DNA of 40,000 bases from Candidatus Altimarinota bacterium (GTDB lineage: Bacteria > Patescibacteriota > Gracilibacteria > BD1-5 > UBA6164): assembly GCA_025210615.1 (NCBI GenBank), contig JAOARJ010000013.1, forward strand, positions 1-40,000, given 5' to 3'. The notes under the pieces were generated by a model, which did no database searches, was not told the origin of the DNA, and saw nothing but the letters and a program-made list of their open reading frames with translations. The translations under genes were made by a program, and so were the position numbers. This document shows, one piece after another, positions 521 through 25,298 of the stretch. Each line of letters starts with the position of its first letter. Position 1 is the first letter of the stretch.

Positions 521-1756
521 ATGCTAAAAAATAATGATCCAAAATTAGCTGATATGATAGCTAGAGAAAAAACTAGACAACTAGAAGAAGTAGAACTTAT
601 TGCTTCAGAAAATTATGTAACAGCTGATGTACTTGAAGCAAATGGAAGTATTTTGACGAATAAATATAGTGAATGATATCCATGAAAAAGATATTATGCT
701 GGTAATGAAATTATCGATGAAGTAGAAACTTTAGCAATAGAAAGAGCAAAGCAGCTATTTGATGCAGAATATGCTAATGTACAACCATTATCAGGAAGTC
801 CTGCTAACTTAGCTGTATATTTAGGATTATTAAAACCATGAGATACAGTATTAGGTCTTAGTCTTGACCAATGAGGGCATCTTACTCACGGACACCCATT
901 AAATTTTTCATGAATTTTATATGATATTGTTCCTTATACATTAGATAAGGAAACTGAATTAGTTGATATGGATGAAGTTGAAAAATTAGCACTAGAACAT
1001 AAACCTCAAATGATCTTAGCTTGATTTTCTGCATATTCAAGAAGTTTAGATTGGAAAAGATTTAGAGAAATCGCTGATAAAGTAGGAGCAATCTTATTTG
1101 CTGATATTGCTCATATAGCTGGGCTTGTAGCTGGTAAAGCTATAGAAAATCCAGTTCCATATTGTGATGTTGTTACTACAACTACTCATAAAACTCTAAG
1201 AGGGCCAAGATGAGCATTAATCCTAGCCAAAGAAAAATACGGAGCGCAACTAAATAGAGCAGTATTCCCATGAGTACAAGGTTGACCCCATGAACATATT
1301 ATCGCTGCTAAAGCTGTTGCCTTTTGAGAAGCTTTAAAACCAGAATTCACTGGTTACGCTCAAAAAGTTATTGATAATGCTAGAATACTTGCTAGCGAGC
1401 TTCAAAAATATGGATTTAGAATTTGTTCAGGTTGAACAGATAACCATTCTATGTTAATAGATGTATTTGGTAGTAAAGGATTAAGTTGAAAAGAAGCAGA
1501 AAATGCTCTTCAAGCTGTATGATTATCTACAAACAAAAATATGATTCCATACGATACCAGAAAACCTATGGATCCATCAGGGATAAGACTTTGAACTCCA
1601 GCTGCGACGACTAGAGGATTCTGAGAAGAAGAAATGAAATTTATAGCAAGAGTTTTTGCTGAAGCTATTGAAAATAGAGAAGATGAGACTAAGCTTAAAG
1701 AGTTAAGAGAAGAAGTAAGACAATTATGTAGAAAATTTCCAGTTTATAAAGATTAA
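521..1756 (+). CDS. glyA: Serine hydroxymethyltransferase (411 aa)
   Basis: The code-25 translation gives '[18 protein letters not shown]', '[16 protein letters not shown]' and 'FPGVQGGPHEH'. Several of these conserved Gly are TGA codons (for example 674-676 and 683-685). An 'aaggag' lies upstream at 481-486. Confidence 0.95.
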
Positions 1757-1768
1757 GAAATAAAAAAT

Positions 1769-1796
1769 AAGAGAGATTAATTTCTCTCTTTTTATT
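1769..1796 (+). terminator. Rho-independent terminator after glyA
   Basis: An 8-bp perfect stem, 'aagagaga' (1769-1776) with 'tctctctt' (1783-1790), followed by tttatt. Confidence 0.7.
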
Positions 1797-1821
1797 AGTT
1801 GTATTAAAGTAAAAATTAATT

Positions 1822-2544
1822 ATGAACTTAAAACAAATATTATTAAATGAAACAAAATTATTTTTTAAAAATAATAGTTGGGTATTTTTTATTTTTATAG
1901 TTGCCTTATCGCTTATTGTTTATTATAATACCTGAAATCTGTGGGATATTTTACTTATATTTGTGGCAAATGTTGTATGAGACACCTTGACTATGGTTAT
2001 GAATAGTTGTTATGCTGACAAAAAAGTTAGTGAAGGAAGTTTTCTTTTATTGCTTTCTACTCTTATTTTTACGACAATGTCTTTATATTCGTTTGTTTTT
2101 CAAGGACAAGTTCATTATTTATTGTCAGAATTAGCGTTTTTATTATGATGAATAAAAAGATTTTTAGAAGATACTAAATGAAAAAAAATTAATTATTTTT
2201 GACTTAAAAGTATTTTTATCTTGAATTTTATATCATTGATTATAGTTTGTTATATGGTATTTGTTGATCAAACATTATGATATAGCTCAATAATAATTTT
2301 TATGTGATGATTTTTTACTTCAGTTTTTTTAGTATTAGAAAATTTGAAAATAAAATACTATGGTTCAACTTTTTGACAATTTTTATTTGCTATATGAGCT
2401 TCTATTGCTATTTATCACTGATTATTAAATAAAAATATTATAGGTATGGATTTATCTTGTGCATTATTTTCTTTTACAGTTTTTATTTCTTTTTTGAAAG
2501 ATTGGAATAAATTTAAAGCAATGCCGTTAAAAATAGAAAAATAA
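1822..2544 (+). CDS. Polytopic integral membrane protein, function unknown (240 aa). A PnuC-like transporter is possible but unproven.
   Basis: I checked it codon by codon: open under code 25 from ATG 1822 to TAA 2542-2544. It has multiple hydrophobic segments (e.g. 'WVFFIFIVALSLIVYY', 'FLLLLSTLIFTTMSLYSFVF'). Confidence 0.7.
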
Positions 2545-2612
2545 TTAATTAAAAATTGTATTTTAAATCTTTTTTATTAAAATAAACTTGCTTAAAAAAT
2601 AGAAGAAAAATT

Positions 2613-3668
2613 ATGCAAGAAATATTTTGATTATTCGTTTTATCATTTTGTCTAACTTTTGGATTAATAGAAATATTCAAGAGAATTTTTAAGAAACTAA
2701 ATTTTATAGACAATCCAAAAAAATATTGATACAAAAGAGAACCTGTTCCTTATGGTATGGGAATTATTTTTATTATAAATCTATTAATTCTAGCTTTATT
2801 ATTTATAGAACCTAATGAAAAATTAGGGCTTATTTTATGATTTTGAAGTTTAGTTACTGCTGTGAGTTTTATTGATGATAGAGTAGAAGTTAGCGCAAAA
2901 ATTAGATTATTAATTCAAATTATCATTTGAGCAACAATCGCTATAAATTCAATAAAAATAGGCTATATTAGTAATATTTTTTGATGAATAATTAACCTAG
3001 AAACATATTTTATAGAAATTTTAAATCTAAAAATTTATTTAATTCCTCTGATTTTTACGATAGTATGGTATGTTCTTATTTTTAACGCGATGAATTGGAC
3101 AGATGGCGAAAGATGAATGACGCTTTGAGTTAGTTTTATTTCATATTTTGTCCTATTTATTCTCGCTTTTATGCTCTTTAATACTGATACTTATCAGTGA
3201 TGAATAGAGAATGCTGTTTTTATAATGAAATTGACATCAATTTTAATGTGAAGCGTATTAATATTCTGGTTTTATGAAGTCAAAGAAAAGCTGTTATTAT
3301 GAGATAGTTGAACAATGTTTTTAGGTTTTATGCTCGCAAGTCTTGCAATAATTTCTTGATGAAAAATAGCAACAGTTTTTGCTGTTTTTTGAATCTATTT
3401 AGTAGATGCTTTTTATGTAATAATAAATAGATTAATGCGTAAACAAAATCCTCTAAAATGAGATTTTACACATCTTCATCATAGATTACATAAATTATGA
3501 CTAACAAAATATCAAATTTTATCTATAGTTTATAGTTTAAGTTTAATTTTTTGAATTTCTGCTTTATTTTTAGATAAAACTTGAAAAATCATAGTATTTA
3601 TTATAATAGCTTTATTAGTTGTTTTTATGACGAAAATATTAGAAAAATTTAAAATTAATAAAAAATAA
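2613..3668 (+). CDS. Glycosyltransferase family 4, polyprenyl-phosphate HexNAc-1-phosphate transferase (WecA/TagO/MraY-like, 351 aa)
   Basis: Motifs 'FIDDRVEVSAK', 'NAMNWTDGERG', 'GDSGTMFLGF' and 'THLHHRL' in a multi-TM protein. Open under code 25. Confidence 0.85.
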
Positions 3669-3669
3669 A

Positions 3670-4611
3670 ATGAGAATAGCATTCTTTTGAACACCTCAGT
3701 TTTCTGCTGAAATATTAAAAAAACTTTTAAAAATAGATGATTTAGATATTGCTTTAGTTGTATCACAAACTGATAAACCAATTTGAAGAAAAAAAATTAT
3801 CATGCCTACTCCAGTAAAAGAAGTGGCACTAGACAATAATATAGAAGTTCTTCAACCTACAAAATTAGCTGGTAACACAGAGTTTTTTGATAAGCTTAAT
3901 AGTTTGGATTTAGATTTTATAGTAGTAGTAGCTTATTGAAAGATAGTGCCAACTTGAGTTCTAACAGCAAATAAATATGGACCAATAAATATTCACGGTT
4001 CTATATTGCCGAAATATCGTTGAGCTTCTCCTGTTCAAGAATGTCTACTTAAATGAGATAAAAAGACAGGTTTGACAATAATGTTTATGGATGAAAAAAT
4101 GGACGAATGAGATATACTAGCAATAAAAGAAGTAGACATAGACATAGTAGACACTCAAAAAGAAATCTTTGAAAAATTTGTTGAAATAGGACCGGATTTA
4201 TTAGTAGACACATTAAAAAAAGTGTCTACTTGAGAATTAAAATGACAAAAACAAAACTATGAAGAAGCTACTTATTGCAGTATGATAAAAAAACAAGATT
4301 GACAAATAGATTTTAATTTATCTTCTGAGGAAATTTATAATAAGTTAAGAGCTTATACTCCTTGGCCATGAATTTTTACGCAGTATAAATGAAAAAAATT
4401 TGCGATAGAAAAAGCATTTTTTTGTGAAAATCAGCCTGATAATGCTGAAGTTTGAGATGTTATAAAAACTGTTTCTTGAGAAATTTGAATAGTTTGCTGA
4501 AAATGAGTTTTGACTTTAAAGCAAGTTAAAGTAGAATGAAAAAAATCACAAGATATAAAATCTTTTTTAAACGGTCATAAAGACTTTTTAGATTATAATT
4601 TTAATAAATAA
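3670..4611 (+). CDS. fmt: Methionyl-tRNA formyltransferase (313 aa)
   Basis: 'MRIAFFGTPQFSA', 'VVVAYGKIVP', 'INIHGSILPKYRGASPVQ' and 'TGLTIMFMDEKMDEGDIL'. I checked it codon by codon under code 25. Confidence 0.9.
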
Positions 4612-4621
4612 AACTAAAAAT

Positions 4622-5383
4622 ATGTTCAATATCGCGCTTAATACATTTAGAGAAATTGTTAGAAATAAGTTTTTGTATTTAATACTATTTTTCTCGTTTA
4701 TTTTTATTCTTTTTTCTGTTTCATTGGGGAAATTATCACTATGAGAAGATTCAAAAATTATTATAGATTTTGGTCTTGCAATGATAGAATTTTTTGGATT
4801 AATCTGAGTATTATTTGTCTGAAGTCAGCTTTTATTTAACGAAGTAAATTGAAAAACAATTTTCCTAATATTATCAAAACCCATCAAAAGATATGAATTT
4901 ATTTTATGAAAATTTTTCTGATTTTCTCTTGTAATTTTATTGTTAGTTATATTTGAATCATTAGTATTCTCATCAGTATTATTATTTAAATCAGTAGCAC
5001 TTACTAAGTTGATTTGATTTTCACTAATCTTTATCTTATTAAAGCTAGAAGTGTTACTTGCATTAGTATTATTTTTCTCAACATTTATGTCGAATATTTT
5101 GACTATTTTAGTAACAGTTTTTATTTATTTTATATCACATTGATTTACAATAATTTTAGATTTAGCGACTAGAACAAGAAATGAATTTATTATAAATAGT
5201 GTAAAATGAGTAGACTTGTTATTTCCCCCATTTGAAGCGATGAATCTAAAAGATATGATAGGTTGAATAGTTTGAGTAACTAATACTTATTTATTAAGTA
5301 ATTTAGCTTATGCATTGTGATATTTAACGATAATTTTATTTTTTACTGTTATTTTATTTAACAGAAAAACTTTTGAGAGATAA
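4622..5383 (+). CDS. ABC-2-type permease-like membrane protein (253 aa), with no adjacent ATPase
   Basis: Open under code 25. About 6 hydrophobic helices, N-terminus 'MFNIALNTFREIVRNKFLYLILF', typical of ABC-2 exporter permeases. Confidence 0.65.
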
Positions 5384-5412
5384 AATAAAAAAATATTTTT
5401 TATAAAAAATTA

Positions 5413-6282
5413 ATGAAAAAAGATAAATTAATTAAAATTTTTATGGAAAAGGGCTTAAAAAATTCTCATATTGAGATGATTTTAAGTCATTTTTTATGAT
5501 TAGATAAAACAAGAGTTTTTTTATTAGAAGATATTCCAGAAGATAATATTAGAGACATAGAAAAAGTTTTAAATAGACTACTATCGTGAGAACCGATTGA
5601 ATATATAATTAATAAAGCAGATTTTTATGGTAGAGAATTTTATGTAGATAATAGAGTTTTGGTGCCGAGAAATGAAACAGAATTAATGGTCGAAAAAGTA
5701 TTAGAAAATATCAAAAAAAGTGAAAAAAAAAGAGAAAAATATGACTTTTTTATTGATTTTTGAACAGGTTCTTGCGCGATGCCGATAAGTATTTTTCTAA
5801 ATAATAATAAAAAAAATATAAATTATTTTGCGGTTGATATTTCAGACAAAGCCCTAGAGGTAGCAAAAAAGAATGCTGAAAATTATAAAGCTAATATAAA
5901 ATTAAAACAGTCTGATTTAGCAAATTATTTTTTGGAAAGTTTAGATGAGTTAAAGTGAGTAAAAAATGTTATTATAACAGCGAATTTACCATATATAAAG
6001 AATAGAGATTTTATAAATATGGATCAGGAGGTTATATTTTTTGAACCTAGTGTAGCTCTTTATTGATGAGAAGAAACTTGATTTGAATTATATGAGAAAT
6101 TAACGCAGCAGTTATTAGAATTAAAAGAGAAATTAAGTATAGAAAAAATAGTCGCTTTTTATGAAATTTGATTTGATCAATATGAGGTTTCGAAAGAATT
6201 TTTAGAAAAAAAAGGTTTAAAATTTGATTATTTTAAAGATTTTAATAATATTTACAGGACAATTAAAGTAGAATTTATTTAA
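5413..6282 (+). CDS. prmC: Release-factor glutamine N5-methyltransferase (PrmC/HemK, 289 aa)
   Basis: 'VLVPRNETE', SAM motif 'DFGTGSCAM', catalytic 'NLPY' (an NPPY variant) and 'EPSVALYGGEETGFELY'. Confidence 0.85.
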
Positions 6283-6300
6283 TAAATTTATATAATAATT

Positions 6301-6729
6301 ATGAATGAAACAATAAATAAATTTGGTTATCCGAAAACATTGCTGAAAGAATATAAGCATTGGGTTGTTTTATTAAGACCAAAACAAGCAACATTGTGAG
6401 CAATGATTTTGGCACACAAATGAAATGAAGAGAGATTGTCAGAAGTTAGTAAGGAGGCTTTTATTGAATATTGAGAAATTATTAAAGATATAGAAAAAAT
6501 CTTAAAAGAAACTTTTGATTATGATATAATGAATTATTTGATGCTGATGATGAAAGATAAACAAATTCATTATCATGTGATTCCGAGATATAGTAAGGTT
6601 GTTGATTTTGAATGAATAAAATGTAATGATGAATGATGGCCTAAAGCGCCAAATATGAAATACGATTTGTGATTTAGTGAAGAGCAGTTTAATAAACTAA
6701 AAAATATTTTAAAAAATAAATTTCAATAA
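6301..6729 (+). CDS. HIT-family nucleotide hydrolase/transferase-like protein (142 aa)
   Basis: 'HWVVLLRPKQ' and the histidine-triad-like 'IHYHVIPRY'. Open under code 25. Confidence 0.65.
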
Positions 6730-6731
6730 AA

Positions 6732-7376
6732 ATGAGTGTAGAAGAAATAGGAGATATTGAGGAGGTCGAGTCCTGAAGTCAGTGAGTTGAGGTATCTGAA
6801 AAAGATAGACAGAGGCAAGAAAAGGCGAAAAAGCAGTTTAAAAAACTTCAAAAAGATGAAAATAAAGCTAAAAAAACAGATTTACTTTTGGCTGATTTTT
6901 TGTCGCAAATTTTAAAGGATAGAAGATATGATTTTTTGTGGGATGATATTATTGATAATATAGATGAAGGCGTTCCATCGAATTTTATTTTATGAGTGTT
7001 ATCTCTTATTTATTTACCTATTTCAGATAAAATAAGAGAATTTACTTTGAAAGAAAAAATCGTTTTTGATTATTCTACTGAGGAGAGAATAAAATTTGAT
7101 GATAATAAACTAGACGATAAGATAAAACTTAGAATAAATCAAATGCTTGAAGATATTATTTGAGTAGTGACTTATGAACCATCTACTGTTTTAACCCAAA
7201 GACTGATTAAACAAATTAAACAAAAACAAGTAGTGAAATTTTTCCAAAAGACATTTTTATTCTTTTTTGATAACATAAATATTGACATTTCAGATAAAAA
7301 AGCACTAAGTTATTCTATGTTTATTCTTGATGAAATAAGGAAAACTTTAGAAAAAATTGAACTTGAAGAGATATAA
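6732..7376 (+). CDS. Hypothetical protein (214 aa), acidic/basic N-terminus
   Basis: ATG 6732. It joins in frame to the track ORF 7167-7376 through TGA codons. I recognise no motif. Confidence 0.65.
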
Positions 7377-7496
7377 AATTTGACTTTTTAGAGATATTAT
7401 ATAAAATTTGGCAGTCTATTCTTTAAAAATTTAATATTTTTAAAAATAATAGAAGAGAATTATAATAATAAAATTATTTTTTATAAAAATTATCAT

Positions 7497-9635
7497 ATGA
7501 GTAAAGACTATCCTTTAAATAAGGTAAGAAACATTGGTATCATCGCCCATATTGATGCGGGTAAGACTACTACTACAGAAAGAATTTTGTACTACACTGG
7601 TAGAACTCACAAAATTGGTGAAACACATGATGGTGAATCACAAATGGACTGGATGGAACAAGAAAAAGAAAGAGGTATTACTATTACTTCGGCGGCTACT
7701 ACTGCATTCTGGAAAGATGTTCAAATCAATATTATTGATACTCCAGGTCACGTGGATTTTACTATTGAAGTAGAAAGAGCGCTTAGAGTACTTGACGGTT
7801 GAGTTGCTGTGTTTGATGGTTCACAATGAGTAGAACCTCAATCTGAAACAGTATGGAAACAAGCTGATAGATATAATGTACCTAGAATTGCATTTGTAAA
7901 TAAAATGGATAAAACAGGTGCTGACTTTTTTATGACTTTAGAATCTATTAAAACTAGATTAGCTGGTAATAAAGTTGTTGCTATTCAAATGCCTATCGGG
8001 GCTGCTGAAGATCACGTATGAGTTATTGATTTAGTAACTATGAAAGCTTATCACTTTGAAGGAGATTCAGGTGAAAAAGTTACTGAAATTGAAATTCCTG
8101 CTGATTTAAAAGAAAAAGCAGACGCTTTAAGATTAGAAATGATTGAAAAAGTTGCTGAACAAGATGAAGCATTAATGGATAAATATTTCTCTGAATGAGA
8201 TTTAAGTGAAGAAGAAATCAAAAAAGGTTTAAGAATAGGTACTACAAATGATAGCTTATACCCAGTTACTTGTGGTTCAGCTCTTCAAAATGTATGAGTA
8301 CAACTTATGATTGATGCTGCTGTTGAATATTTACCTTCTCCAATTGATAGAGATAATGGTAACATTACAGTTATGGCTGAAGATGATTATGAAAAAACTG
8401 AAGAAATTAAAGTTGATGCTAATTCTCCATTAGCGGCTATTGCTTTTAAGGTTATGACTGATCCTTTCGTAGGTAGATTAACTTTTACTAGAGTATATGC
8501 TGGTACGCTAAAATCAGGTTCTTACGTTTATAATTCTATTTCTGGTAAAAAAGAAAGAGTTGGTAGGCTGCTTCAAATGCATGCTAACACTAGAGAAGAA
8601 ATTAGTGAAATTAAAGCTGGTCATATCTGAGCTGTAGTTGGTCTTAAAGATACTAAAACTGGTGAAACTTTATGTGATATGGACAAGAAAATTGTTCTTG
8701 AATCAATGGAATTCCCAGAACCAGTTATCGCGGTTGCTGTTGAACCAAAAACTAAAGCTGATCAAGAAAAAATGGGTATGGCATTAGCAAAACTTGCTGA
8801 AGAAGATCCATCATTCAAAGTTAAAACTGACGAAGAAACTGGACAAACTGTTATCTCAGGTATGGGTGAACTTCACTTAGATGTGCTTGTAGACAGAATG
8901 AAGAGAGAATTTAAAGTTGAATGTAATGTTGGTAACCCACAAGTTGCTTACAGAGAAACAATTAAAATTCCTGTTGCTGATGTTGAACATAAATATTCTA
9001 AACAAACTTGAGGTAGAGGTCAATATGGTCATGTTGTTATTACTTTTGAACCATACAAAGAAAGAGAAGAAGATGATGAACAAGATACTCCAAAACCATT
9101 ATTCAAATTTGTGAATAAAATTACTGGTTGAGTTATTCCTAAAGAATATATTCCTGGTGTTAAAAAAGGTTTAGAAGAATCTTATAAAAGAGGTTTCGTT
9201 GCTGGATACCCAATGGTAGATATTAAAGCTACTTTAACATTCGGTTCTTTCCATGAAGTTGATTCTTCTGAATTAGCCTTCAAGATTGCTGCTTCTAAAG
9301 CATTTAGAGACGCTTGTAAGAAAGCTCAAGCTATTATCTTAGAACCAATAATGAAAGTTGAGGTTAATACTCCTGAAGAGTATATGGGTGATATTTTATG
9401 ACAAATTAATTCTAAGAGAGGTAGAATTGAAGAAATGACAGATAGAGGACAAGCTAAAGTTATTACTGCTTTTGTTCCATTATCTGAAATGTTTGGTTAT
9501 ACTACTGAATTAAGATCAGCTTCTCAAGGTAGAGCAACTTCTTCTATGGAATTCGACCATTATGCTGAAGTTCCAGCTAATATTGCTACTGAAATCAGAG
9601 AAGAAAGAGGATTCACTTTAGAAGATGATGATTAA
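7497..9635 (+). CDS. fusA: Translation elongation factor G (712 aa)
   Basis: G1 '[12 protein letters not shown]', 'DTPGHVDF' and '[13 protein letters not shown]' (that Gly is TGA). Five track fragments share one frame. Confidence 0.97.
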
Positions 9636-10924: not shown

Positions 10925-12445
10925 ATGAATGAAGTATTATTTTTGTTATGTGGACTATTAGCTTGAATAGCTGTATACCATTTGATAACAAAATATATTG
11001 ACTCAAAGACTAAACAAAATAGTCAAAAAGAAGCAGACCAAATCTTAAAAAATGCAAAAGTAGATAAAGAGAAAATTATAACTGAAGCCAAGTTGGAAAA
11101 AAATGAAATATTAAATAAGGCAGATAGTGAGAGAGATAAAATTCTAGAGAAAGCAAGACAAGCTGAACAAAGAATTATATCTAAAGAAGATAAATTAGAT
11201 TTGAAAGCAGAAGAGTTGACTAAAAAACAAGAATCTTTATTTAAAAAAGAAGAATCTTTAGAAAAAGAAAGAAATGTTTTGGCTGAAAAAACATGAGAAT
11301 TAGAAATTAAAATTTCTGAAATAGCTAAACTAACTGAAGAAGAAGCAAGAGGATTGTTCCTGAAACAAATGGAAGAAAAATATGAAAAAGATGCTATTTC
11401 TTTATTAGATAAGAGAAAATCTTATTATAAGGAAAAAGAGAAGGAAGTATCTAGAGAAATTTTGATTAAAGCTATGCAACAATATTCTTGTGATGTTACA
11501 ACTGAAACGACTTCTACAGTTATACCGCTTGAGAGTGATGATATAAAATGAAGACTTATCTGAAAAGAAGGTCGTAATATTATTACTTTTGAAAAAGCTA
11601 CGTGAGTTTCTCTTATTATAGACGATACTCCGGATACTGTGTTTATTTCTAGTTTTGATTTATATAGAAGATATGTAGCGAAAGTTTCTCTTGAAAAACT
11701 TTTAGAAGATAAGAGAATACAACCTGCTAGAATTGAAGAAATCGTTGAAAATACTAAAGGAGAGGCTGATATTTTACTAAAAAATATTGGTCAAAAGACT
11801 TTAGATGAACTTGATATAAAACCTCTTCCAGAAGAGATTGTTAAGCTTATCTGAAAACTTAGATTTAGAACTAGTTATGGACAAAATATTTTGCAACACT
11901 CTAGGGAAATGGCGTTTATTGCTGAAAGTATAGCCAAAGATTTGTGAGTAGATACATACGCTGTTAGAGTCTGAGCGTTACTGCATGATATTTGAAAAGC
12001 ATTAGACCATGATATTGAATGAAATCATCCAGAAATTTGAGCTAGAGTAGCGAGAAAATATGGAATTTCTGAAGATATAGTAGATATGATAGAAAACCAC
12101 CATGGAGAACCTACAATGATATCTTTAAACTCTGCTATTATACAAGTTGCTGACACAATTAGTAGTGTTAGACCTTGAGCAAGAAGGGAATCTATCGAAC
12201 TATATCTAAAGAGAATTAAAGAATTAGAAACGCTTGTACAAACTTTTTCTTGAGTAAATAATGCTTATGCAGTAAGTGCTTGAAGAGAAGTTAGAGTATT
12301 TGTTGATGCGGAAGTTATTTCTGATATCGAAGCTGTAAAAATGGCTAGAGATATTGCTGATAAAATACAAGAAAATGGAAGCTATCCTTGAGAAGTAAAA
12401 GTGAATTTAATTAGAGAAATTAGAGTTATAGAATACGCTAAATAA
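10925..12445 (+). CDS. rny: Ribonuclease Y (506 aa)
   Basis: N-terminal TM helix, a Lys/Glu coiled coil, KH '[28 protein letters not shown]', and HD region 'LRFRTSYGQNILQHSREMAFIAE'. Three track fragments share one frame. Confidence 0.9.
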
Positions 12446-21368: not shown

Positions 21369-21449
21369 AATTTTCTTTAATATTATTTTTATTTGTATAA
21401 GTCTATCATATTTTTTTAAAAAAGCCAATAATTTAGGTTTGACAAATTA

Positions 21450-21490
21450 AAAAAAACTAAAAAAATAAAGAAGTAATAGCAACTTCTTTA
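21450..21490 (-). terminator. Rho-independent terminator after the Kazal-domain gene
   Basis: A 9-bp stem, 21466-21474 with 21482-21490 ('taaagaagt' / 'acttcttta'), followed on the minus strand by a T-run. Confidence 0.65.
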
Positions 21491-21499
21491 TTAAAAATA

Positions 21500-22618
21500 T
21501 TAGTTATTTTCAAAATAAATTTTAGCATTTTTTAAATTAATTTCTTGTAATTCTTTTACTTTTTCTTGAAAAAATTTATTATTTTTAGATAATTTTTTTG
21601 CAAAATCAGCAGGGAAAATAAATCATAAATCTTCATCTTTAAAATTATTTCATCAATCAGGTTTTTTATATCAAATTATTTCATATTTATCATCAGTTAT
21701 CTTAGTTTGCATTAGGATAGGAATAATTGTTTGCACTCAAGTATGAATTCATCACTCCTTATCTTCATAATATTCTTCAGAAACAACTATTACATAATTA
21801 TCAGTAATTCAAGTGTCTTTATTTTCAGTTTTTCAAACTATATTAAAAGCAGTTATTCTAGCTCATCATAAAGCCCTTACTCAAATATTATCTTTAATAT
21901 AATTTATCCTTAGTAAATCAACTTTTTCTTTAGTGTTTTCAGTAATATATTTATTGTTACTTTCATCTTGATTTTCGTCCTTATTTTCTTCTGAAGAATC
22001 AGAATTTTTTTCTGTATTATTAGATGTTTTTTCTTCGTCATCTTCAGCCACTATAACAGTAGTATTCTTATTTTCTTCTTCCAATTTTTTAATTAATTCT
22101 TGTTCTTTTTTTATAAGCTCTTGTTTTCTTTTTTCTAGTTCAGCTTTTTCTTTTTCTTCTGCTTCTTTTTTAGAAATTAAATTATCTCTATATTTTATAA
22201 AAGCATTTGTTACATTTTTTATTTTTTCTTCTGTTATTCTCGCGTCTGGTTTAACTTCTTTGATTTGAGATAATAAATTATTTATAAATTTTATTTTTCT
22301 TTCATAATCAAATTTATAAGTAACAAAATAATTATCTAAAAATATTGTTATTCTAGCTTCATCTTCTGAAATATCTGATTTTTCTGTTAAATCTCAGCTA
22401 GGTTTATCTTCCCCAGAACAACTACCAAAATAATCAGTTTCTACTCAGGCTTCTTTCATATAACAAGAATTTTGATAAGTGATTCAATCTTTCCCGCAGA
22501 CAGGATAATAATTGTTTGTACATAAAGAAGCATTAGTATTATTTATGTTTAATACTCAAAATATTCCTGCTAAAATTAATAAAAAAATTTTATTTTTTAA
22601 TATATTTTTTATAGTCAT
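21500..22618 (-). CDS. Secreted protein with an N-terminal Kazal-type protease-inhibitor-like domain, a KE-rich coiled coil and an acidic low-complexity linker (372 aa)
   Basis: Signal-like 'IFLLILAGIFGVLNINNTNA', then 'LCTNNYYPVCGKDGITYQNSCYMKEAGVETDYFGSC' (the 'PVCG-DG-TY-N-C' Kazal core). Track ORF 21881-22084 is in frame. Confidence 0.78.
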
Positions 22619-22674
22619 GATTTTGTTTTATATTTTAAATTATTTAAGATATAATACTCAAAAATAATTTTTGT

Positions 22675-22700
22675 CAAAAAAAGACTAGAATTTCTAGCCT
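22675..22700 (-). terminator. Rho-independent terminator overlapping the stop of the 812-aa gene
   Basis: The minus strand reads 'aggctagaaattctagtcttttttt'. The TAG stop (22696-22694) lies in the stem. Confidence 0.65.
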
Positions 22701-25132
22701 AATTCTCCTCATACACTGAAAGTATTTGTCATGTCTGTAATATCTTTTCTGTTTTTTGATTCTTCTAGCCACTGCGCGATTATATTTTCATTTATCATTC
22801 AGTCTTCTCTTATTATTCAAGACTTTTGTCATTGTAATATAGTTTGTTCTTTTGTTTTGAATCTTCATTTAAAGAATCTAGTTAGTTGTCAAAAATCTTT
22901 TGAAATACTAATTTCCTCTTCCATATTTAGCATCATTAATATTATTCTTATAAGTTTTTTAGCTTCAGCAGGTTTTACTCAATCACTTAGATTAATATCA
23001 GTTTTTAGGTCTGTCATTGTTCAGATAGTACTCAAAAAAGGTATAAACGGAGATAATCTACATTCTTCAAAAATATCTACAAGGGCCAAGTAAGAAAGAG
23101 CATCAGCTTTAGATTTAAAAGTTTCAGTTTTTCAAGTAGATATAATATTTAATTTAATTTCTCAATTATCTAATTCTTTCCATTTCATTCAAAAATTATC
23201 AGTTTTATTTTTAGCGTCTTCTATTGTAAAGTTTTCTTCAGTAACAGTTTTTCAGTTGATAGTAAATTTTGTCATTCTTTCACCATCTCTTTTTTGACTT
23301 TCTTTTTTGCTTTTTTCTTCTTCTTTTTTTTGCTTTTCACTTTTGTTTTTATCTTCATCTTTTTTAGTGTATTTTATTTCATTTGTGTTTAAAGCTAGTT
23401 CTTGTAATGAATTTGATAAATTACTAAAGAAAGTATTTTCCTCTATTTTAGGCAATAGGGACTCTTTATCATCTAAAATTAATTTTATAATAATAGGAAG
23501 ACCTTTTTCTTGTAAATATAATTGACAATCATCAACTCATTCTTTCCAGTTTGTAAATAAATCAATAAATTTATTATAATCTCAAGGATTTTGAGGTCAT
23601 AAAACACTTTGTAATTTATTTAGAAAGTCGTCAGAATCTTTAGAATTTTCATATAACCAAATCATATAATCTCATAATTCCTCTCAATCAAAAATTGATA
23701 AAGACTTAGAATTCTTTATTTTATTTTCAAATCTTTCATAGTGTTCATCTGTACCTATAATAGCTTCTGCTTCATGTATTTTTTCTTTTACGAAGGAAAG
23801 CGATTTTTGTATAATAGGTGCTGAAACAATTTCATCTACTGCTTTATCAAGTAAATCTTTTGCTCATTCAGCAACATATTCAAGAGGATTTTTTGATTCT
23901 AATGCTTTATTTACAGATTCTTTTACAGAAGAAACAATTTCACTAACTTCTTCAGGAAGATTTTCTACAAACTCCACTGTATCTTCGGCTAGAGAACTAA
24001 CTCCATCAATACTATCAGTTATGAATTCTTGTATATTTTCTCAAGCATTAGATAAATTTGCTTCTAGATTTCCCATTGTTTCTGAGAAAGAAAACATTTC
24101 ATCTAATCTATCTAGAATAATTTCATTATCTGTTCTAGTGTCTGCTAAAATATTATTTTGTAGGGCAAATTCTTGCCAACGGCTTTCAGGAGAAGAACCA
24201 AAAGAATCAAAAAAACTAGAATTTTCTTGTTGCTCTTCTTGTTTTATGAAATCTAAAACTTTTTGTTCAGTATAATCTAAATTATCTTTTTTTTGCTTTA
24301 ATAAATAATCTAGGGCTTCATCTCAAGTTTTATTTTTAATTATATTTTTAAAATTTTTGAATATAGTATAATTAAAACGCCATGAATTTTCATCAGTTTT
24401 ATAGAATCTTTTATCCTTAAGAGCAGCGCTTATTTGAGAAATAAGAGAAGTTAATAAATGCCTTTTAGCAGGAGAGGATGTAAGTTTATTATAAATTTCT
24501 TGTTTTAAGGCTTTAGACTCTTCATCAAATAATTTATTAAGGTCATTAAATTCTTTATTGCCAGAAAATACTTCTAAATCTTCACGAGTAAGTCAGGTTT
24601 CTTGCAATTTTTTTAAATCTTGTATTTCTTGCCTTAGATAAAATAAATTTTCAGAAGTTTTTTCTTTTGATAATTTTAAAAAGTTATTATATGCTTTTTC
24701 TATTTCATCAAATTCTTTATATATTTTGTTTATTTGTTTGGAATTTCATTTGTAAGAGTCTAATAATTTAGAATAAATATTTATTGCAGAATTAAACTCT
24801 TCACCTGCTTCATTAAGTACTTTTTTTTCAGATAAAATTTTTAAATCTCTTATAGTAAACCATTTTTTTTGTAATTTTTTTAGATCTTGAAATTCTTGTT
24901 TTAGGTAAAACAGGTCATCAGGTGTTTTTTCTCTAGATAATACTTTTAAATTATCATATATTTCCTCTATTTCATCAAATTTTTTATATATTCTGTTTAG
25001 TTGTTCAGGTTTTCATTTATAAGCTTCTGTTAATTCAGAATATATGTCAACAGCAGAATTAAAAATATTATCAGCTTCTTGTTCAGGAGAAATATTTTCT
25101 AAAGATACATTTTTGTTTTCTATTACATTCAT
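22694..25132 (-). CDS. Large, predicted cytoplasmic, helical protein of unknown function (812 aa) with an N-terminal 2 x 89-aa tandem repeat
   Basis: ATG at 25132-25130. Open under code 25 to TAG. Track ORFs 25013-25195 and 23252-23455 are in frame. No signal peptide or TM segment seen. Confidence 0.72.
24540..25075 (-). repeat. In-frame tandem duplication, period 267 bp (89 aa), two diverged copies
   Basis: 'tatttcatca' recurs at 24701 and 24968. The protein copies are 'NIFNSAVDIYSELTEAYKGKPEQLNRIYKKFDEIEEIYDNLKVLSREKTPDDLFYLKQEFQDLKKLQ' and 'EEFNSAINIYSKLLDSYKGNSKQINKIYKEFDEIEKAYNNFLKLSKEKTSENLFYLRQEIQDLKKLQ'. Confidence 0.8.
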
Positions 25133-25298
25133 AATTTTATTTTTGTTTTTATATTTATTTTGCTCTATTATATCATTTATTTTTTTATATTGCAAATATT
25201 AGAAAGGTTGGCTAAAAACACGAAAAATAGCTTGTAAAATTATAAAAAATAGATATATTTATAAAAAGTAAATTTTTAGTAATTAAGAGGGATTTTTT

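What the first reader, a model, noticed from the sequence alone, without database searches (positions are those of the whole stretch)
21500..22618. Secreted Kazal-type protease-inhibitor-like protein immediately upstream of the T4SS-like operon
After a signal-like N-terminus, the protein has 'LCTNNYYPVCGKDGITYQNSCYMKEAGVETDYFGSC' (about 22415-22531). This reproduces the Kazal core 'C...PVCG.DG.TY.N.C......C', but with four rather than six cysteines. Kazal domains are mainly eukaryotic and are sporadic in bacteria. Here the domain is fused to a KE-rich coiled coil, an acidic Asn/Glu/Asp linker and a C-terminal globular domain, and the gene has its own terminator. For an obligate episymbiont or predator, a secreted serine-protease inhibitor next to a surface machine suggests protection of the apparatus from host proteases, or manipulation of host proteases.
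Basis: partly seen in the sequence, partly recalled or inferred. Interest (0 to 1): 0.65.

Follow-up and report, generated by a model that had tools for sequence, protein, structure and literature searches.

The report
Secreted four-cysteine Kazal inhibitor, Gracilibacteria
An uncultured Gracilibacteria genome, which reads TGA as glycine, encodes an exported protein whose tip is a genuine two-disulfide Kazal protease-inhibitor domain; such domains are common in this bacterial class, and no conserved link to the neighbouring secretion-system genes was found outside a small group of close relatives.

Summary
With TGA read as Gly (table 25), 21500..22618 on the minus strand is one 372-aa gene. 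It has one N-terminal hydrophobic signal-like segment and exactly four cysteines, all in residues 33-67.

This segment scores above Pfam's curated cut-offs for Kazal_1 and Kazal_2. It aligns without gaps to the solved two-disulfide Kazal GmSPI-2, a subtilisin/proteinase K inhibitor. An AlphaFold model superposes on that structure (TM 0.87, rmsd 1.3 A). The canonical reactive loop is intact. P1 is Asn35, invariant in all four known orthologues but the most variable position among the prokaryotic Kazal domains sampled.

Behind the head lie a helical stalk, a disordered acidic linker and a confidently folded C-terminal alpha+beta (NTF2/cystatin-like) domain from an unannotated family.

Kazal domains are common here, in about 30% of genomes of the class. 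The gene has its own promoter-like site and terminator. It lies next to the VirD4-like ATPase/pilin operon only in a small clade, whereas that ATPase is present in all 60 relatives searched.

Most likely it is a secreted standard-mechanism serine-protease inhibitor of unknown target. It is a new member of a known kind in a new domain combination, and of modest interest.

The parts
21500..22618 (-). Whole gene: 372-aa exported Kazal-head protein (P0001), read with TGA=Gly; 16 TGA codons
   Evidence: orthologues P0002-P0004
22529..22618 (-). Signal-peptide-like N-terminus (residues 1-30). It has a Lys-rich n-region, the h-region IFLLILAGIFGVL and the c-region NINNTNA. The predicted cut is A30|S31, with small residues at -3 and -1 in all four orthologues. 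There is no lipobox (Leu at -1 before Cys33).
   Evidence: This is a heuristic reading; no dedicated signal-peptide predictor was available.
22412..22528 (-). Kazal domain (residues 31-69), non-classical two-disulfide type. Predicted disulfides are C33-C52 and C41-C67. The loop-bracing Asn is N50.
22505..22522 (-). Reactive-site loop, P3-P3' = C33 T34 N35 N36 Y37 Y38. The P1 Asn35 codon is 22514-22516. The predicted scissile bond is N35-N36.
   Evidence: Alignment to GmSPI-2 (P1 Thr7) and ovomucoid domain 3. P1 Asn is invariant in four orthologues. P1 is the most variable column among the prokaryotic Kazal domains sampled.
22070..22366 (-). Helical region (residues 85-183): helices 85-100 and 105-119, plus a long K/E-rich helix 130-183 (stalk or coiled coil). 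The first part (about 85-157) is shared with other Kazal proteins of the family.
21947..22069 (-). Disordered acidic Asn/Glu/Asp/Ser linker (residues 184-224), net charge about -8, variable in length among orthologues
21503..21946 (-). C-terminal globular domain (residues 225-372): a short strand, a helix, a four-stranded antiparallel sheet and C-terminal helices. The fold is NTF2/cystatin-like. It belongs to an unannotated family otherwise found as lipoproteins or exported proteins of about 175 aa.
21449..21492 (-). Intrinsic-terminator-like hairpin (AAUAAAGAAGU...ACUUCUUUAUU) plus U-run, directly after the stop codon
   Evidence: a counterpart in the same position in L014
22632..22661 (-). 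Promoter-like site (TTGAGT-18-TAAAAT, 9 of 12) upstream of the ATG. The orthologue locus L014 has a better one (TTGACA-18-TATAGT, 11 of 12).
   Evidence: consensus matches only; their number in the region equals the chance expectation
22673..22700 (-). Terminator of the upstream 833-aa gene (8-bp stem plus T-run), which separates it from the Kazal gene

Best explanation
The gene encodes an exported, modular protein. Its N-terminal head is a functional standard-mechanism (Laskowski) serine-protease inhibitor of the Kazal family, in the non-classical two-disulfide subgroup typified by Galleria GmSPI-2 and horseshoe-crab CrSPI-1 domain 1.

After signal-peptide cleavage at about A30|S31, the rigid loop C33-T34-N35-N36-Y37-Y38 would dock substrate-like into the active site of a serine protease. 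The loop is held by disulfides C33-C52 and C41-C67 and by the side chain of Asn50. P1 is Asn35.

The helical stalk, acidic linker and C-terminal alpha+beta domain most likely space the head from the cell envelope and retain it there. This is inferred only from the fact that homologues of the C-terminal domain are extracytoplasmic lipoproteins.

The target is unknown. By analogy with the closest characterised relatives, which have polar P1 residues and two disulfides, I think a subtilisin-like or other broad-S1 secreted protease from the host or the surrounding community is most likely. The organism's own two exported trypsin-fold proteases are the main alternative.

The gene is an independent transcription unit. 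Its position beside the VirD4-like ATPase/pilin operon is a clade-specific neighbourhood, not demonstrated coupling.

Shown: domain identity, cysteine framework, fold, loop conservation, architecture and distribution. Inferred: secretion, inhibition, target and tethering.
For: - Family and framework: Pfam Kazal_1 and Kazal_2 both score above their curated cut-offs. A gapless 38-residue alignment to GmSPI-2 (E 3.7e-9) matches all four Cys. GmSPI-2 has disulfides C5-C24 and C13-C39, P1 Thr7 and seven residues between the first two Cys, and it inhibits subtilisin and proteinase K (PMC4169406). The two-disulfide CrSPI-1 domain 1 binds subtilisin canonically, with a polar P1 (PMC3082530).
- Fold: AlphaFold gives pLDDT 77-94 over the Kazal domain. 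Foldseek finds 4hgu at TM 0.87, rmsd 1.3 A and 54% identity, and LDTI 1an1 at TM 0.84.
- Loop and scaffold: residues shared with ovomucoid domain 3 are P3 Cys, P2 Thr, P2' Tyr, Pro-x-Cys-Gly, Asp, Thr-Tyr and Asn-x-Cys. Among 30 distinct prokaryotic four-Cys domains the scaffold columns are invariant, while P1 is the most variable (3.3 bits). This is the classic signature of Kazal inhibitors.
- Orthologues: within the four orthologues (32-62% identity to the window's protein) P1 Asn is invariant.
- Export: there are only four Cys in the protein and only one hydrophobic segment.
- Independence: a promoter-like site and terminators flank the gene.
- Distribution.
Against: - No biochemical data exist for any prokaryotic Kazal protein that I could find.
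- I found no characterised Kazal with P1 Asn, so specificity cannot be read off.
- Kazal-fold modules also occur in non-inhibitory proteins such as agrin, follistatin and RECK (hits).
- Signal-peptide cleavage was judged by rule of thumb only. An uncleaved signal anchor is possible.
- Three of four orthologues lie directly upstream of the T4SS-type ATPase, so some functional link cannot be excluded.
Confidence: 0.6

Rival explanations
1. One reading: a T4SS accessory. The inhibitor is functionally coupled to the adjacent VirD4-like ATPase/VirB2-like pilin machine. It would shield the pilus or apparatus from host proteases, or act on host proteases at the contact site.
For: The gene lies immediately upstream of the ATPase and on the same strand in the window, in the 57%-identical orthologue (L014/L015) and in the distant orthologue P0004, whose downstream gene is 71% identical to the ATPase. 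An unchecked scan note reports a four-Cys Kazal fused to a type IV pilin in another CPR genome (e1-4450297).
Against: - The ATPase orthologue is present in 61 of 61 genomes searched, but none of the 60 relatives has a full-length orthologue of this protein.
- Kazal genes of relatives, where both positions were listed, lie on other contigs or about 128 kb away (G017).
- Six other genera have unrelated genes upstream of the ATPase.
- Orthologue P0003 sits between an RRM gene and a decarboxylase gene, not next to the ATPase.
- A terminator-like hairpin separates the gene from the operon.
- LysS neighbours both the ATPase in other genera and the Kazal gene in P0003 and P0004. This fits an insertion into a pre-existing LysS-ATPase neighbourhood that was then inherited.
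Confidence: 0.12
2. Self-control: the Kazal head regulates the bacterium's own exported trypsin-fold proteases, or protects the cell surface from them. The target would be endogenous, not foreign.
For: The genome encodes two exported Trypsin_2 proteases: a 676-aa protein with a signal peptide at G000:C6:180780-182807 and a 276-aa protein with an N-terminal anchor on contig C4. In a genome of the same family (G009), a secreted protein homologous to residues 3-157 of this protein (pairwise E 8e-9) lies between two secreted S1 proteases on the same strand (L065).
Against: - In this genome the nearer protease gene is about 160 kb away. Inhibitors of a cell's own proteases are usually encoded beside them (general knowledge: staphostatins, AprI/Inh).
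- The Kazal-like segment of the G009 protein has an insertion and extra Cys, and does not reach Pfam significance.
- Across 60 relatives the two gene families do not co-occur more than chance: 8 genomes have both, against about 6.9 expected.
Confidence: 0.2
3. A non-inhibitory module: the Kazal fold serves as a small disulfide-stabilised binding or capping domain (as in agrin, follistatin or SPARC), and the protein is an adhesin or structural envelope protein.
For: Kazal-like modules occur in non-inhibitory proteins (agrin, follistatin and RECK hits). They are attached to many unrelated C-terminal partners in this class. No activity data exist.
Against: The full canonical loop and its bracing Asn are retained. 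P1 is hypervariable against an invariant scaffold, which is typical of active inhibitors. The closest solved relative at 54% identity is a potent inhibitor.
Confidence: 0.1

Closest known systems
[quoted passage not shown]
   Same: - Four-Cys framework (C-x7-C-x10-C-x14-C), with a gapless alignment and 54% identity over 39 columns.
- Same predicted disulfide pairs and same loop length.
- Polar P1.
- The model superposes at TM 0.87 and rmsd 1.3 A.
   Different: GmSPI-2 is a free 36-residue insect silk peptide with P1 Thr. Here the domain heads a 342-residue mature bacterial protein and has P1 Asn. Inhibition has not been tested.
CrSPI-1 domain 1 (PDB 3pis, 3qtl), horseshoe-crab non-classical group I Kazal in complex with subtilisin
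   Same: A two-disulfide Kazal domain whose loop binds subtilisin in the canonical manner, with P3 Cys and P2' Tyr.
   Different: It has P1 His and a different C-terminal segment, is part of a two-headed inhibitor, and is eukaryotic.
Turkey ovomucoid third domain / PSTI (classical Kazal, Pfam PF00050, MEROPS I1)
   Same: The reactive-site loop and scaffold residues: C-T-x-x-Y-x-P-x-C-G-x-D-x-x-T-Y-x-N-x-C.
   Different: Classical members have six Cys. The first and fifth (the I-V disulfide) are absent here.
Other Kazal-headed secreted proteins of Gracilibacteria, Saccharibacteria and DPANN archaea (unnamed; loci L003-L013, L027-L036)
   Same: A signal or anchor followed by a four-Cys Kazal of consensus C-T-x-E-Y-x-P-V-C-G-x-D-G-K-T-Y-x-N-x-C...G-x-C.
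   Different: They carry different C-terminal partners. Most have P1' Glu and a P1 other than Asn. The combination of stalk, acidic linker and NTF2/cystatin-like domain is found in only four proteins.
VirB8-like proteins (TraE of pKM101, PDB 5i97/5wip)
   Same: The C-terminal domain gives weak Foldseek matches to the NTF2-like VirB8 fold. The architecture of an N-terminal hydrophobic segment, a helical region and an alpha+beta domain beside T4SS genes is reminiscent of VirB8-like proteins. VirB8 homologues are reported as nearly undetectable in Patescibacteria (PMC12102498).
   Different: - The matches are weak (probability 0.25-0.44, TM about 0.3) and rank below generic NTF2-like proteins.
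- The topology is one helix before the sheet and three after it.
- Homologues of the domain lie in housekeeping contexts, not in T4SS loci.
- The protein is absent from all 60 relatives, each of which has the ATPase gene.

Membership tests
Kazal-type serine protease inhibitor domain (Pfam PF00050/PF07648; MEROPS I1) | Profile-HMM score above the curated gathering threshold | tested here: met
   Kazal_1 scores 33.1 bits (cut-off 21, E 5.8e-8). Kazal_2 scores 25.9 bits (cut-off 22.8). Orthologues P0003 and P0004 also pass.
Kazal-type serine protease inhibitor domain (Pfam PF00050/PF07648; MEROPS I1) | Classical six-cysteine framework (I-V, II-IV, III-VI) | tested here: not met
   Only four Cys are present in the whole protein. 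Cys I and V are absent.
Non-classical two-disulfide Kazal subgroup (GmSPI-2, CrSPI-1 D1) | Four Cys spaced C-x7-C-x10-C-x(about 14)-C, pairing 1-3 and 2-4 (equivalent to II-IV and III-VI) | tested here: met
   A gapless alignment matches all four Cys to GmSPI-2 C5, C13, C24 and C39. The pairing is inferred by homology.
Kazal-type serine protease inhibitor domain (Pfam PF00050/PF07648; MEROPS I1) | Fold: beta-hairpin, central alpha-helix and a third strand | tested here: met
   The AlphaFold model has strands 40-42 and 61-64 and helix 51-56, with pLDDT 77-94. Foldseek gives 4hgu at TM 0.87 and 1an1 at TM 0.84, both with probability 1.00.
Kazal-type serine protease inhibitor domain (Pfam PF00050/PF07648; MEROPS I1) | Canonical reactive-site loop (P3 Cys, P2 usually Thr, exposed P1, P2' Tyr) braced by a conserved Asn two residues before the helix Cys | tested here: met
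   The loop is C33-T34-N35-N36-Y37-Y38, and N50-x-C52 is present. These residues are invariant or conserved in the orthologues and the family.
Kazal-type serine protease inhibitor domain (Pfam PF00050/PF07648; MEROPS I1) | Tight, substrate-like inhibition of a serine protease | not testable with these tools
   This needs protein expression and enzyme assays.
Kazal-type serine protease inhibitor domain (Pfam PF00050/PF07648; MEROPS I1) | Extracytoplasmic location (needed for disulfides) | tested here: inconclusive
   An n-h-c signal-like N-terminus with small residues at -3 and -1 is present in four orthologues. No dedicated predictor and no experimental data were available.
VirB8-like T4SS component | NTF2-like periplasmic domain clearly similar to VirB8, TraM or PrgL structures | tested here: inconclusive
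   Only TraE of pKM101 matches, at probability 0.25-0.44 and TM about 0.3. Generic NTF2-like proteins rank higher. No Gram-positive VirB8-like structure is in the top 50.
VirB8-like T4SS component | Conserved together with the T4SS genes across the lineage | tested here: not met
   The ATPase is in 61 of 61 genomes searched, while none of the 60 relatives has a full-length orthologue of this protein. Homologues of the C-terminal domain are not in T4SS contexts.
Cystatin (MEROPS I25) | QxVxG hairpin motif and sequence or structure matches to true cystatins | tested here: not met
   No Pfam or PDB sequence hit was found. No true cystatin is among the top 50 Foldseek hits. No QxVxG motif occurs in residues 225-372 (sequence).

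The most novel reading that the evidence does not exclude
The protein could be a two-part T4SS-associated surface component specific to a small Gracilibacteria clade. Its C-terminal NTF2/cystatin-like domain would stand in for the VirB8-type scaffold that has not been found in most Patescibacteria. The stalk would hold a Kazal head with an unprecedented, conserved P1 Asn at the host-contact site, where it would block a specific host serine protease. That would make it the first inhibitor-bearing structural part of a type IV secretion machine.
Probability: 0.05. Interest if true: 0.75.

Novelty: new member of a known kind. Interest (0 to 1): 0.35.

Why it matters
To my knowledge, Kazal inhibitors have been studied almost only in animals, oomycetes and apicomplexans. 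In the held library I found no paper that characterises a Kazal protein from bacteria or archaea.

Four-cysteine Kazal heads on exported proteins occur in about 30% of genomes sampled from this class, and also in Saccharibacteria and DPANN archaea. That suggests protease inhibition at the cell surface may be a common trait of ultra-small episymbionts that live attached to other cells.

This protein is a compact test case. It has a single Kazal head and a strictly conserved, unusual P1 Asn, and its closest solved relative is a known subtilisin inhibitor, so a simple expression-and-assay experiment would settle its function. The C-terminal domain also marks an unannotated family of envelope proteins found in several phyla.

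The finding does not reveal a new mechanism, and the suggested tie to the secretion system is not supported.

Tried and rejected
- Whole-protein word-index search: it found only one homologue, probably because the K/E-rich low-complexity words took most of the 8000 scored candidates.
- Word-index search restricted to residues 26-72: it found only the query itself. The reason is probably that database proteins of this lineage were translated with TGA as Trp or stop, and a short region shares few exact words. One search was wasted.
- First AlphaFold run with a 2-row alignment: poor (mean pLDDT 51, Kazal part below 50). It was superseded by the composite 48-row alignment.
It was rerun with the four-orthologue alignment.
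- Naming the C-terminal domain: Pfam on 27 members, NCBIfam, a profile against PDB sequences and BFVD Foldseek all gave nothing meaningful.
- Lipoprotein reading: rejected. Residue -1 before Cys33 is Leu, and Cys33 is needed as the P3 half-cystine.
- The genome's own S8 subtilase as target: rejected. The 811-aa protein has no signal peptide and sits beside an AAA ATPase.
- VirB8 and cystatin readings of the C-terminal domain: considered and judged unlikely (see the membership tests).
- Genome-level co-occurrence of Kazal genes with the S1 protease family: none beyond chance.
- Plus-strand ORFs inside the gene (for example 21933..22307): these are Ser/Phe-rich mirror images of the K/E-rich coding strand and are not genes.
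- Literature on P1-Asn Kazal inhibitors or characterised prokaryotic Kazal proteins: none found.
Full report
**1. What is in the sequence**

The window is AT-rich (about 22-32% G+C). Under the standard bacterial code the region breaks into short ORFs. With NCBI table 25 (TGA = Gly) it resolves into long genes. Positions 21500..22618 on the minus strand form one 372-aa ORF (P0001) with 16 in-frame TGA codons.

Two of its glycines are TGA codons. G45 lies on the nearly invariant Gly of the PVCGxDGxTY motif, which standard-code organisms encode with GGN. The domain consensus therefore independently supports the recoding.

The protein has exactly four cysteines (33, 41, 52, 67) and a single hydrophobic stretch (residues 9-25). 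Earlier scan notes place the genome in uncultured Gracilibacteria. The titles of related loci agree.

**2. Is it a Kazal domain?**

Yes, on four lines of evidence.
- Pfam Kazal_1 scores 33.1 bits (cut-off 21; E 5.8e-8) and Kazal_2 scores 25.9 bits (cut-off 22.8).
[quoted passage not shown] The E-value is 3.7e-9, residues 30-67 align to 2-39 without a gap, and all four Cys are matched.
- The GmSPI-2 structure paper (PMC4169406) describes a four-cysteine Kazal. Its disulfides are C5-C24 and C13-C39, there are seven residues between the first two Cys, and P1 is Thr7. It is strongly active against subtilisin and proteinase K. By this alignment the window's protein should form C33-C52 and C41-C67, with P1 = Asn35 and P1' = Asn36.
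- Residues shared with ovomucoid domain 3 (alignment) include P3 Cys, P2 Thr, P2' Tyr, Pro-x-Cys-Gly, Asp, Thr-Tyr and Asn-x-Cys. In the CrSPI-1-subtilisin structure paper (PMC3082530) the corresponding Asn braces the loop by hydrogen bonds to the P2 and P1' carbonyls.

A first AlphaFold run with two sequences was poor. A second run used a composite alignment of 48 rows: four orthologues, 21 Kazal domains from fetched loci and 23 C-terminal homologues. It gave mean pLDDT 83.5, with 77-94 over the Kazal domain. Foldseek against the PDB put 4hgu first (TM 0.87 normalised to the target, rmsd 1.3 A, 39 columns, 54% identity). LDTI (1an1, TM 0.84) and CrSPI-1 D1 (3pis) followed.

**3. Signs of a working inhibitor**

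I collected 30 distinct four-Cys prokaryotic Kazal domains from the fetched loci. The scaffold columns (Cys, Pro-Val-Cys, Thr-Tyr, Asn) are invariant, and P1 is the most variable column at 3.3 bits. This is the hypervariable-contact-residue pattern long known for Kazal inhibitors. One caveat applies: the loci were partly fetched with patterns derived from this protein, which inflates Asn at P1.

Within the orthologous group the picture reverses. P0001, P0002, P0003 and P0004, retranslated with table 25, are 32-62% identical to P0001, and Asn35 is invariant in all four. That fits a fixed, specific target.

I found no characterised Kazal with P1 Asn. Two-disulfide Kazal domains with polar P1 residues (Thr, His, Glu) are subtilisin inhibitors, so a subtilisin-like or broad-S1 target is my best guess. 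It is only an analogy.

**4. The rest of the protein**

The model shows these parts:
- helices 85-100 and 105-119, and a long K/E-rich helix 130-183 (pLDDT above 83);
- a disordered acidic linker, 184-224 (pLDDT below 50, net charge about -8), whose length varies among orthologues;
- a confident C-terminal domain, 225-372 (pLDDT about 95), built from a short strand, a helix, four long antiparallel strands and three C-terminal helices.

An exhaustive HMMER search of 1.84 billion representative proteins with this domain found 26 proteins. Three share the full Kazal architecture. The rest are mostly 170-200-aa proteins with lipobox or signal-like N-termini. They have no Pfam, NCBIfam or PDB sequence match, and the one that carries a name is 'hypothetical protein' from an Anaerolineales MAG.

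Foldseek places the domain among NTF2/cystatin-like alpha+beta rolls: scytalone dehydratase, the CaMKII hub, the ARC6 intermembrane domain and SnoaL-like proteins. It also gives weak matches to the VirB8 homologue TraE (probability 0.25-0.44). All these matches have TM about 0.3 and E > 0.02. The homologues sit next to a class A PBP, next to spoIIP and lepA, or among metabolic genes, and never in T4SS loci. I read the domain as an uncharacterised envelope-associated module, possibly the part that retains the protein at the cell surface. That last point is inference.

**5. Relation to the T4SS-like operon**

The downstream genes are as described: a 929-aa VirD4/TraG-type ATPase and three PF18895 pilin-module proteins (scan notes e1-2632157 and e1-2632158).

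Evidence against coupling:
- The ATPase orthologue is present in all 61 genomes searched, the window's own plus 60 relatives. None of those relatives has a full-length orthologue of the Kazal protein. Sixteen of the 60 match only its N-terminal part.
- Wherever a position was listed for both genes, the match lies on a different contig from the orthologous ATPase gene, or about 128 kb away in G017.
- In six other genera of the family the genes upstream of the ATPase are Era, LysS, a response regulator and others.

Evidence for some link comes from the four known orthologues. The 57%-identical one has the same order: 875-aa protein, Kazal, ATPase, pilins. P0004 lies between LysS and an ATPase gene 71% identical to the window's. 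P0003 lies between an RRM-protein gene and a decarboxylase gene, with LysS nearby and no ATPase. LysS is also the ATPase's neighbour in several genera that lack the Kazal gene. The simplest history is therefore one insertion into a LysS-ATPase neighbourhood, inherited and later rearranged.

The gene also looks monocistronic.
- An intrinsic terminator ends the upstream 833-aa gene.
- A promoter-like site precedes the ATG (9 of 12 here; 11 of 12 in L014).
- A hairpin plus U-run follows the stop codon (z = -4.2 here). A similar one follows the stop in L014.

**6. How common are Kazal domains here?**

Kazal_1 matches above the curated cut-off occur in 90 of 301 genomes sampled from the class. They occur in 25 of 401 sampled from the phylum and in none of 14 control genomes. 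The window's genome has only this one.

In relatives the same four-Cys head (consensus C-T-x-E-Y-x-P-V-C-G-x-D-G-K-T-Y-x-N-x-C...G-x-C) is attached to several different C-terminal partners, singly or in tandem. A pattern scan of species-representative genomes found close relatives of the domain in Gracilibacteria, Saccharibacteria, Micrarchaeota, Woesearchaeota, Saprospiraceae and other Bacteroidota, Myxococcales and Fibrobacteres.

The scan's own notebook holds 868 notes mentioning Kazal, in at least 555 genomes. These are unchecked AI notes, but they agree that the module is frequent in prokaryotic surface proteins.

In the paper library no article combines Kazal with Gracilibacteria. Only two combine it with Patescibacteria; the one listed mentions each term once. 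The theme is therefore common in genomes but essentially undescribed.

**7. Possible targets**

The genome's single S8 subtilase (811 aa) has no signal peptide and is followed by an AAA ATPase, so it is not a plausible extracellular target.

Two exported trypsin-fold proteases exist, a 676-aa secreted protein and a 276-aa anchored one. In G009, of the same family, a secreted protein homologous to residues 3-157 of P0001 (E 8e-9) lies between two secreted S1 proteases. This is a lead for a self-protease/inhibitor pairing. However, its Kazal-like part is altered and falls below Pfam significance. In the window's genome the 676-aa protease gene lies on the same contig but about 160 kb away. The two gene families do not co-occur beyond chance (8 genomes with both, against about 6.9 expected). 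I therefore rank a foreign (host or community) protease first and the organism's own proteases second.

**8. Verdict**

The Kazal assignment is supported. The T4SS-related function is not supported beyond clade-specific adjacency.

The protein is a new member of the known two-disulfide Kazal subgroup, in a new bacterial architecture: Kazal head, helical stalk, acidic linker and an unannotated alpha+beta domain. Interest is modest. The case is a clean, testable example of a widespread but unstudied trait of episymbiotic prokaryotes, but it reveals no new mechanism.

Noticed in passing
L065 (G009:C28:10500-19500), ORFs 1795-3504, 3615-4694, 4811-6046, 6159-7907, all + strand: A relative of the same family has a four-gene cluster of exported proteins. 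In order they are an S1 (Trypsin_2) protease of 569 aa, a 359-aa protein, a 411-aa protein and a second S1 protease of 582 aa. By eye, the 359-aa protein resembles the C-terminal part of the two proteases. The 411-aa protein has an N-terminal half homologous to residues 3-157 of the Kazal protein, with a Kazal-like segment carrying an insertion and extra Cys. This may be a protease/inhibitor gene cluster.
   Followed up: partly
L026 (G000:C3, ORFs 664-3099 and 3129-3842 of the locus): The genome's only S8 subtilisin-like peptidase is an 811-aa protein without a signal peptide. An AAA-type ATPase gene follows it directly. The pairing looks like a cytoplasmic (defence-type?) module and not a secreted protease.
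   Followed up: no
L003, L006, L007, L008, L010, L012 (genomes G057, G039, G045, G041, G049, G037): A recurrent family in the order has this layout: membrane anchor or signal, low-complexity linker, four-Cys Kazal, linker, and a conserved C-terminal domain of about 100 aa. That domain carries the motif Y-x-N-x-x-x-G-Y-x-F-x-x-P-x-x-x-Y-x-x-G-x-G-x-x-D-G-A-x-H and is unrelated to the C-terminal domain studied here. I did not check it against the domain libraries.
   Followed up: no
L054:1968-2090 (archaeon MAG) compared with PDB 4hgu: The insect silk inhibitor GmSPI-2 is an oddity among animal Kazals. It resembles prokaryotic four-Cys Kazal domains very closely: 54% identity to this protein and, by eye, about 60% to an archaeal domain (CPYEWKPVCGVDGKTYQNSCKAKTVGVGIDHDGEC). 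This raises the question of horizontal transfer in one direction or the other. The domain is too short for a reliable tree.
   Followed up: no
window 21503-21946 (-); proteins P0005-P0027: The C-terminal domain defines an unannotated family (consensus FGGxxFCAY..LG...Y.W..CQEYY...G.L..GTG..LPVAL....Y.V..H..PRDG..Y..D...IFP). Its members are lipoproteins or exported proteins of about 175 aa in several phyla. One lies between spoIIP and lepA in a Firmicutes-like contig, and one lies beside a class A PBP.
   Followed up: partly
window 22694-25195 (-); L023:2414-4999: The upstream 833-aa protein has no Pfam or NCBIfam match. An 861-aa protein near the P0003 orthologue shows only weak similarity to it (pairwise E 0.005 over about 85 residues). 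An 875-aa protein occupies the same position in L014. It may be a fast-evolving companion gene.
   Followed up: partly
window about 21440-21460 (-) and L014 about 11105-11120 (+): A shared motif, TTGTCAAAC(C), lies just after the terminator U-run and upstream of the ATPase gene in both the window and the orthologous locus. It could be the -35 region of the ATPase/pilin operon promoter.
   Followed up: no
L004 (G014:C19), 364-aa ORF on the minus strand of the locus: A secreted protein combines an N-terminal Cys-rich module (by eye DUF333-like), two Kazal-like domains (one with extra Cys) and a C-terminal domain of about 180 aa. I did not check it against Pfam.
   Followed up: no
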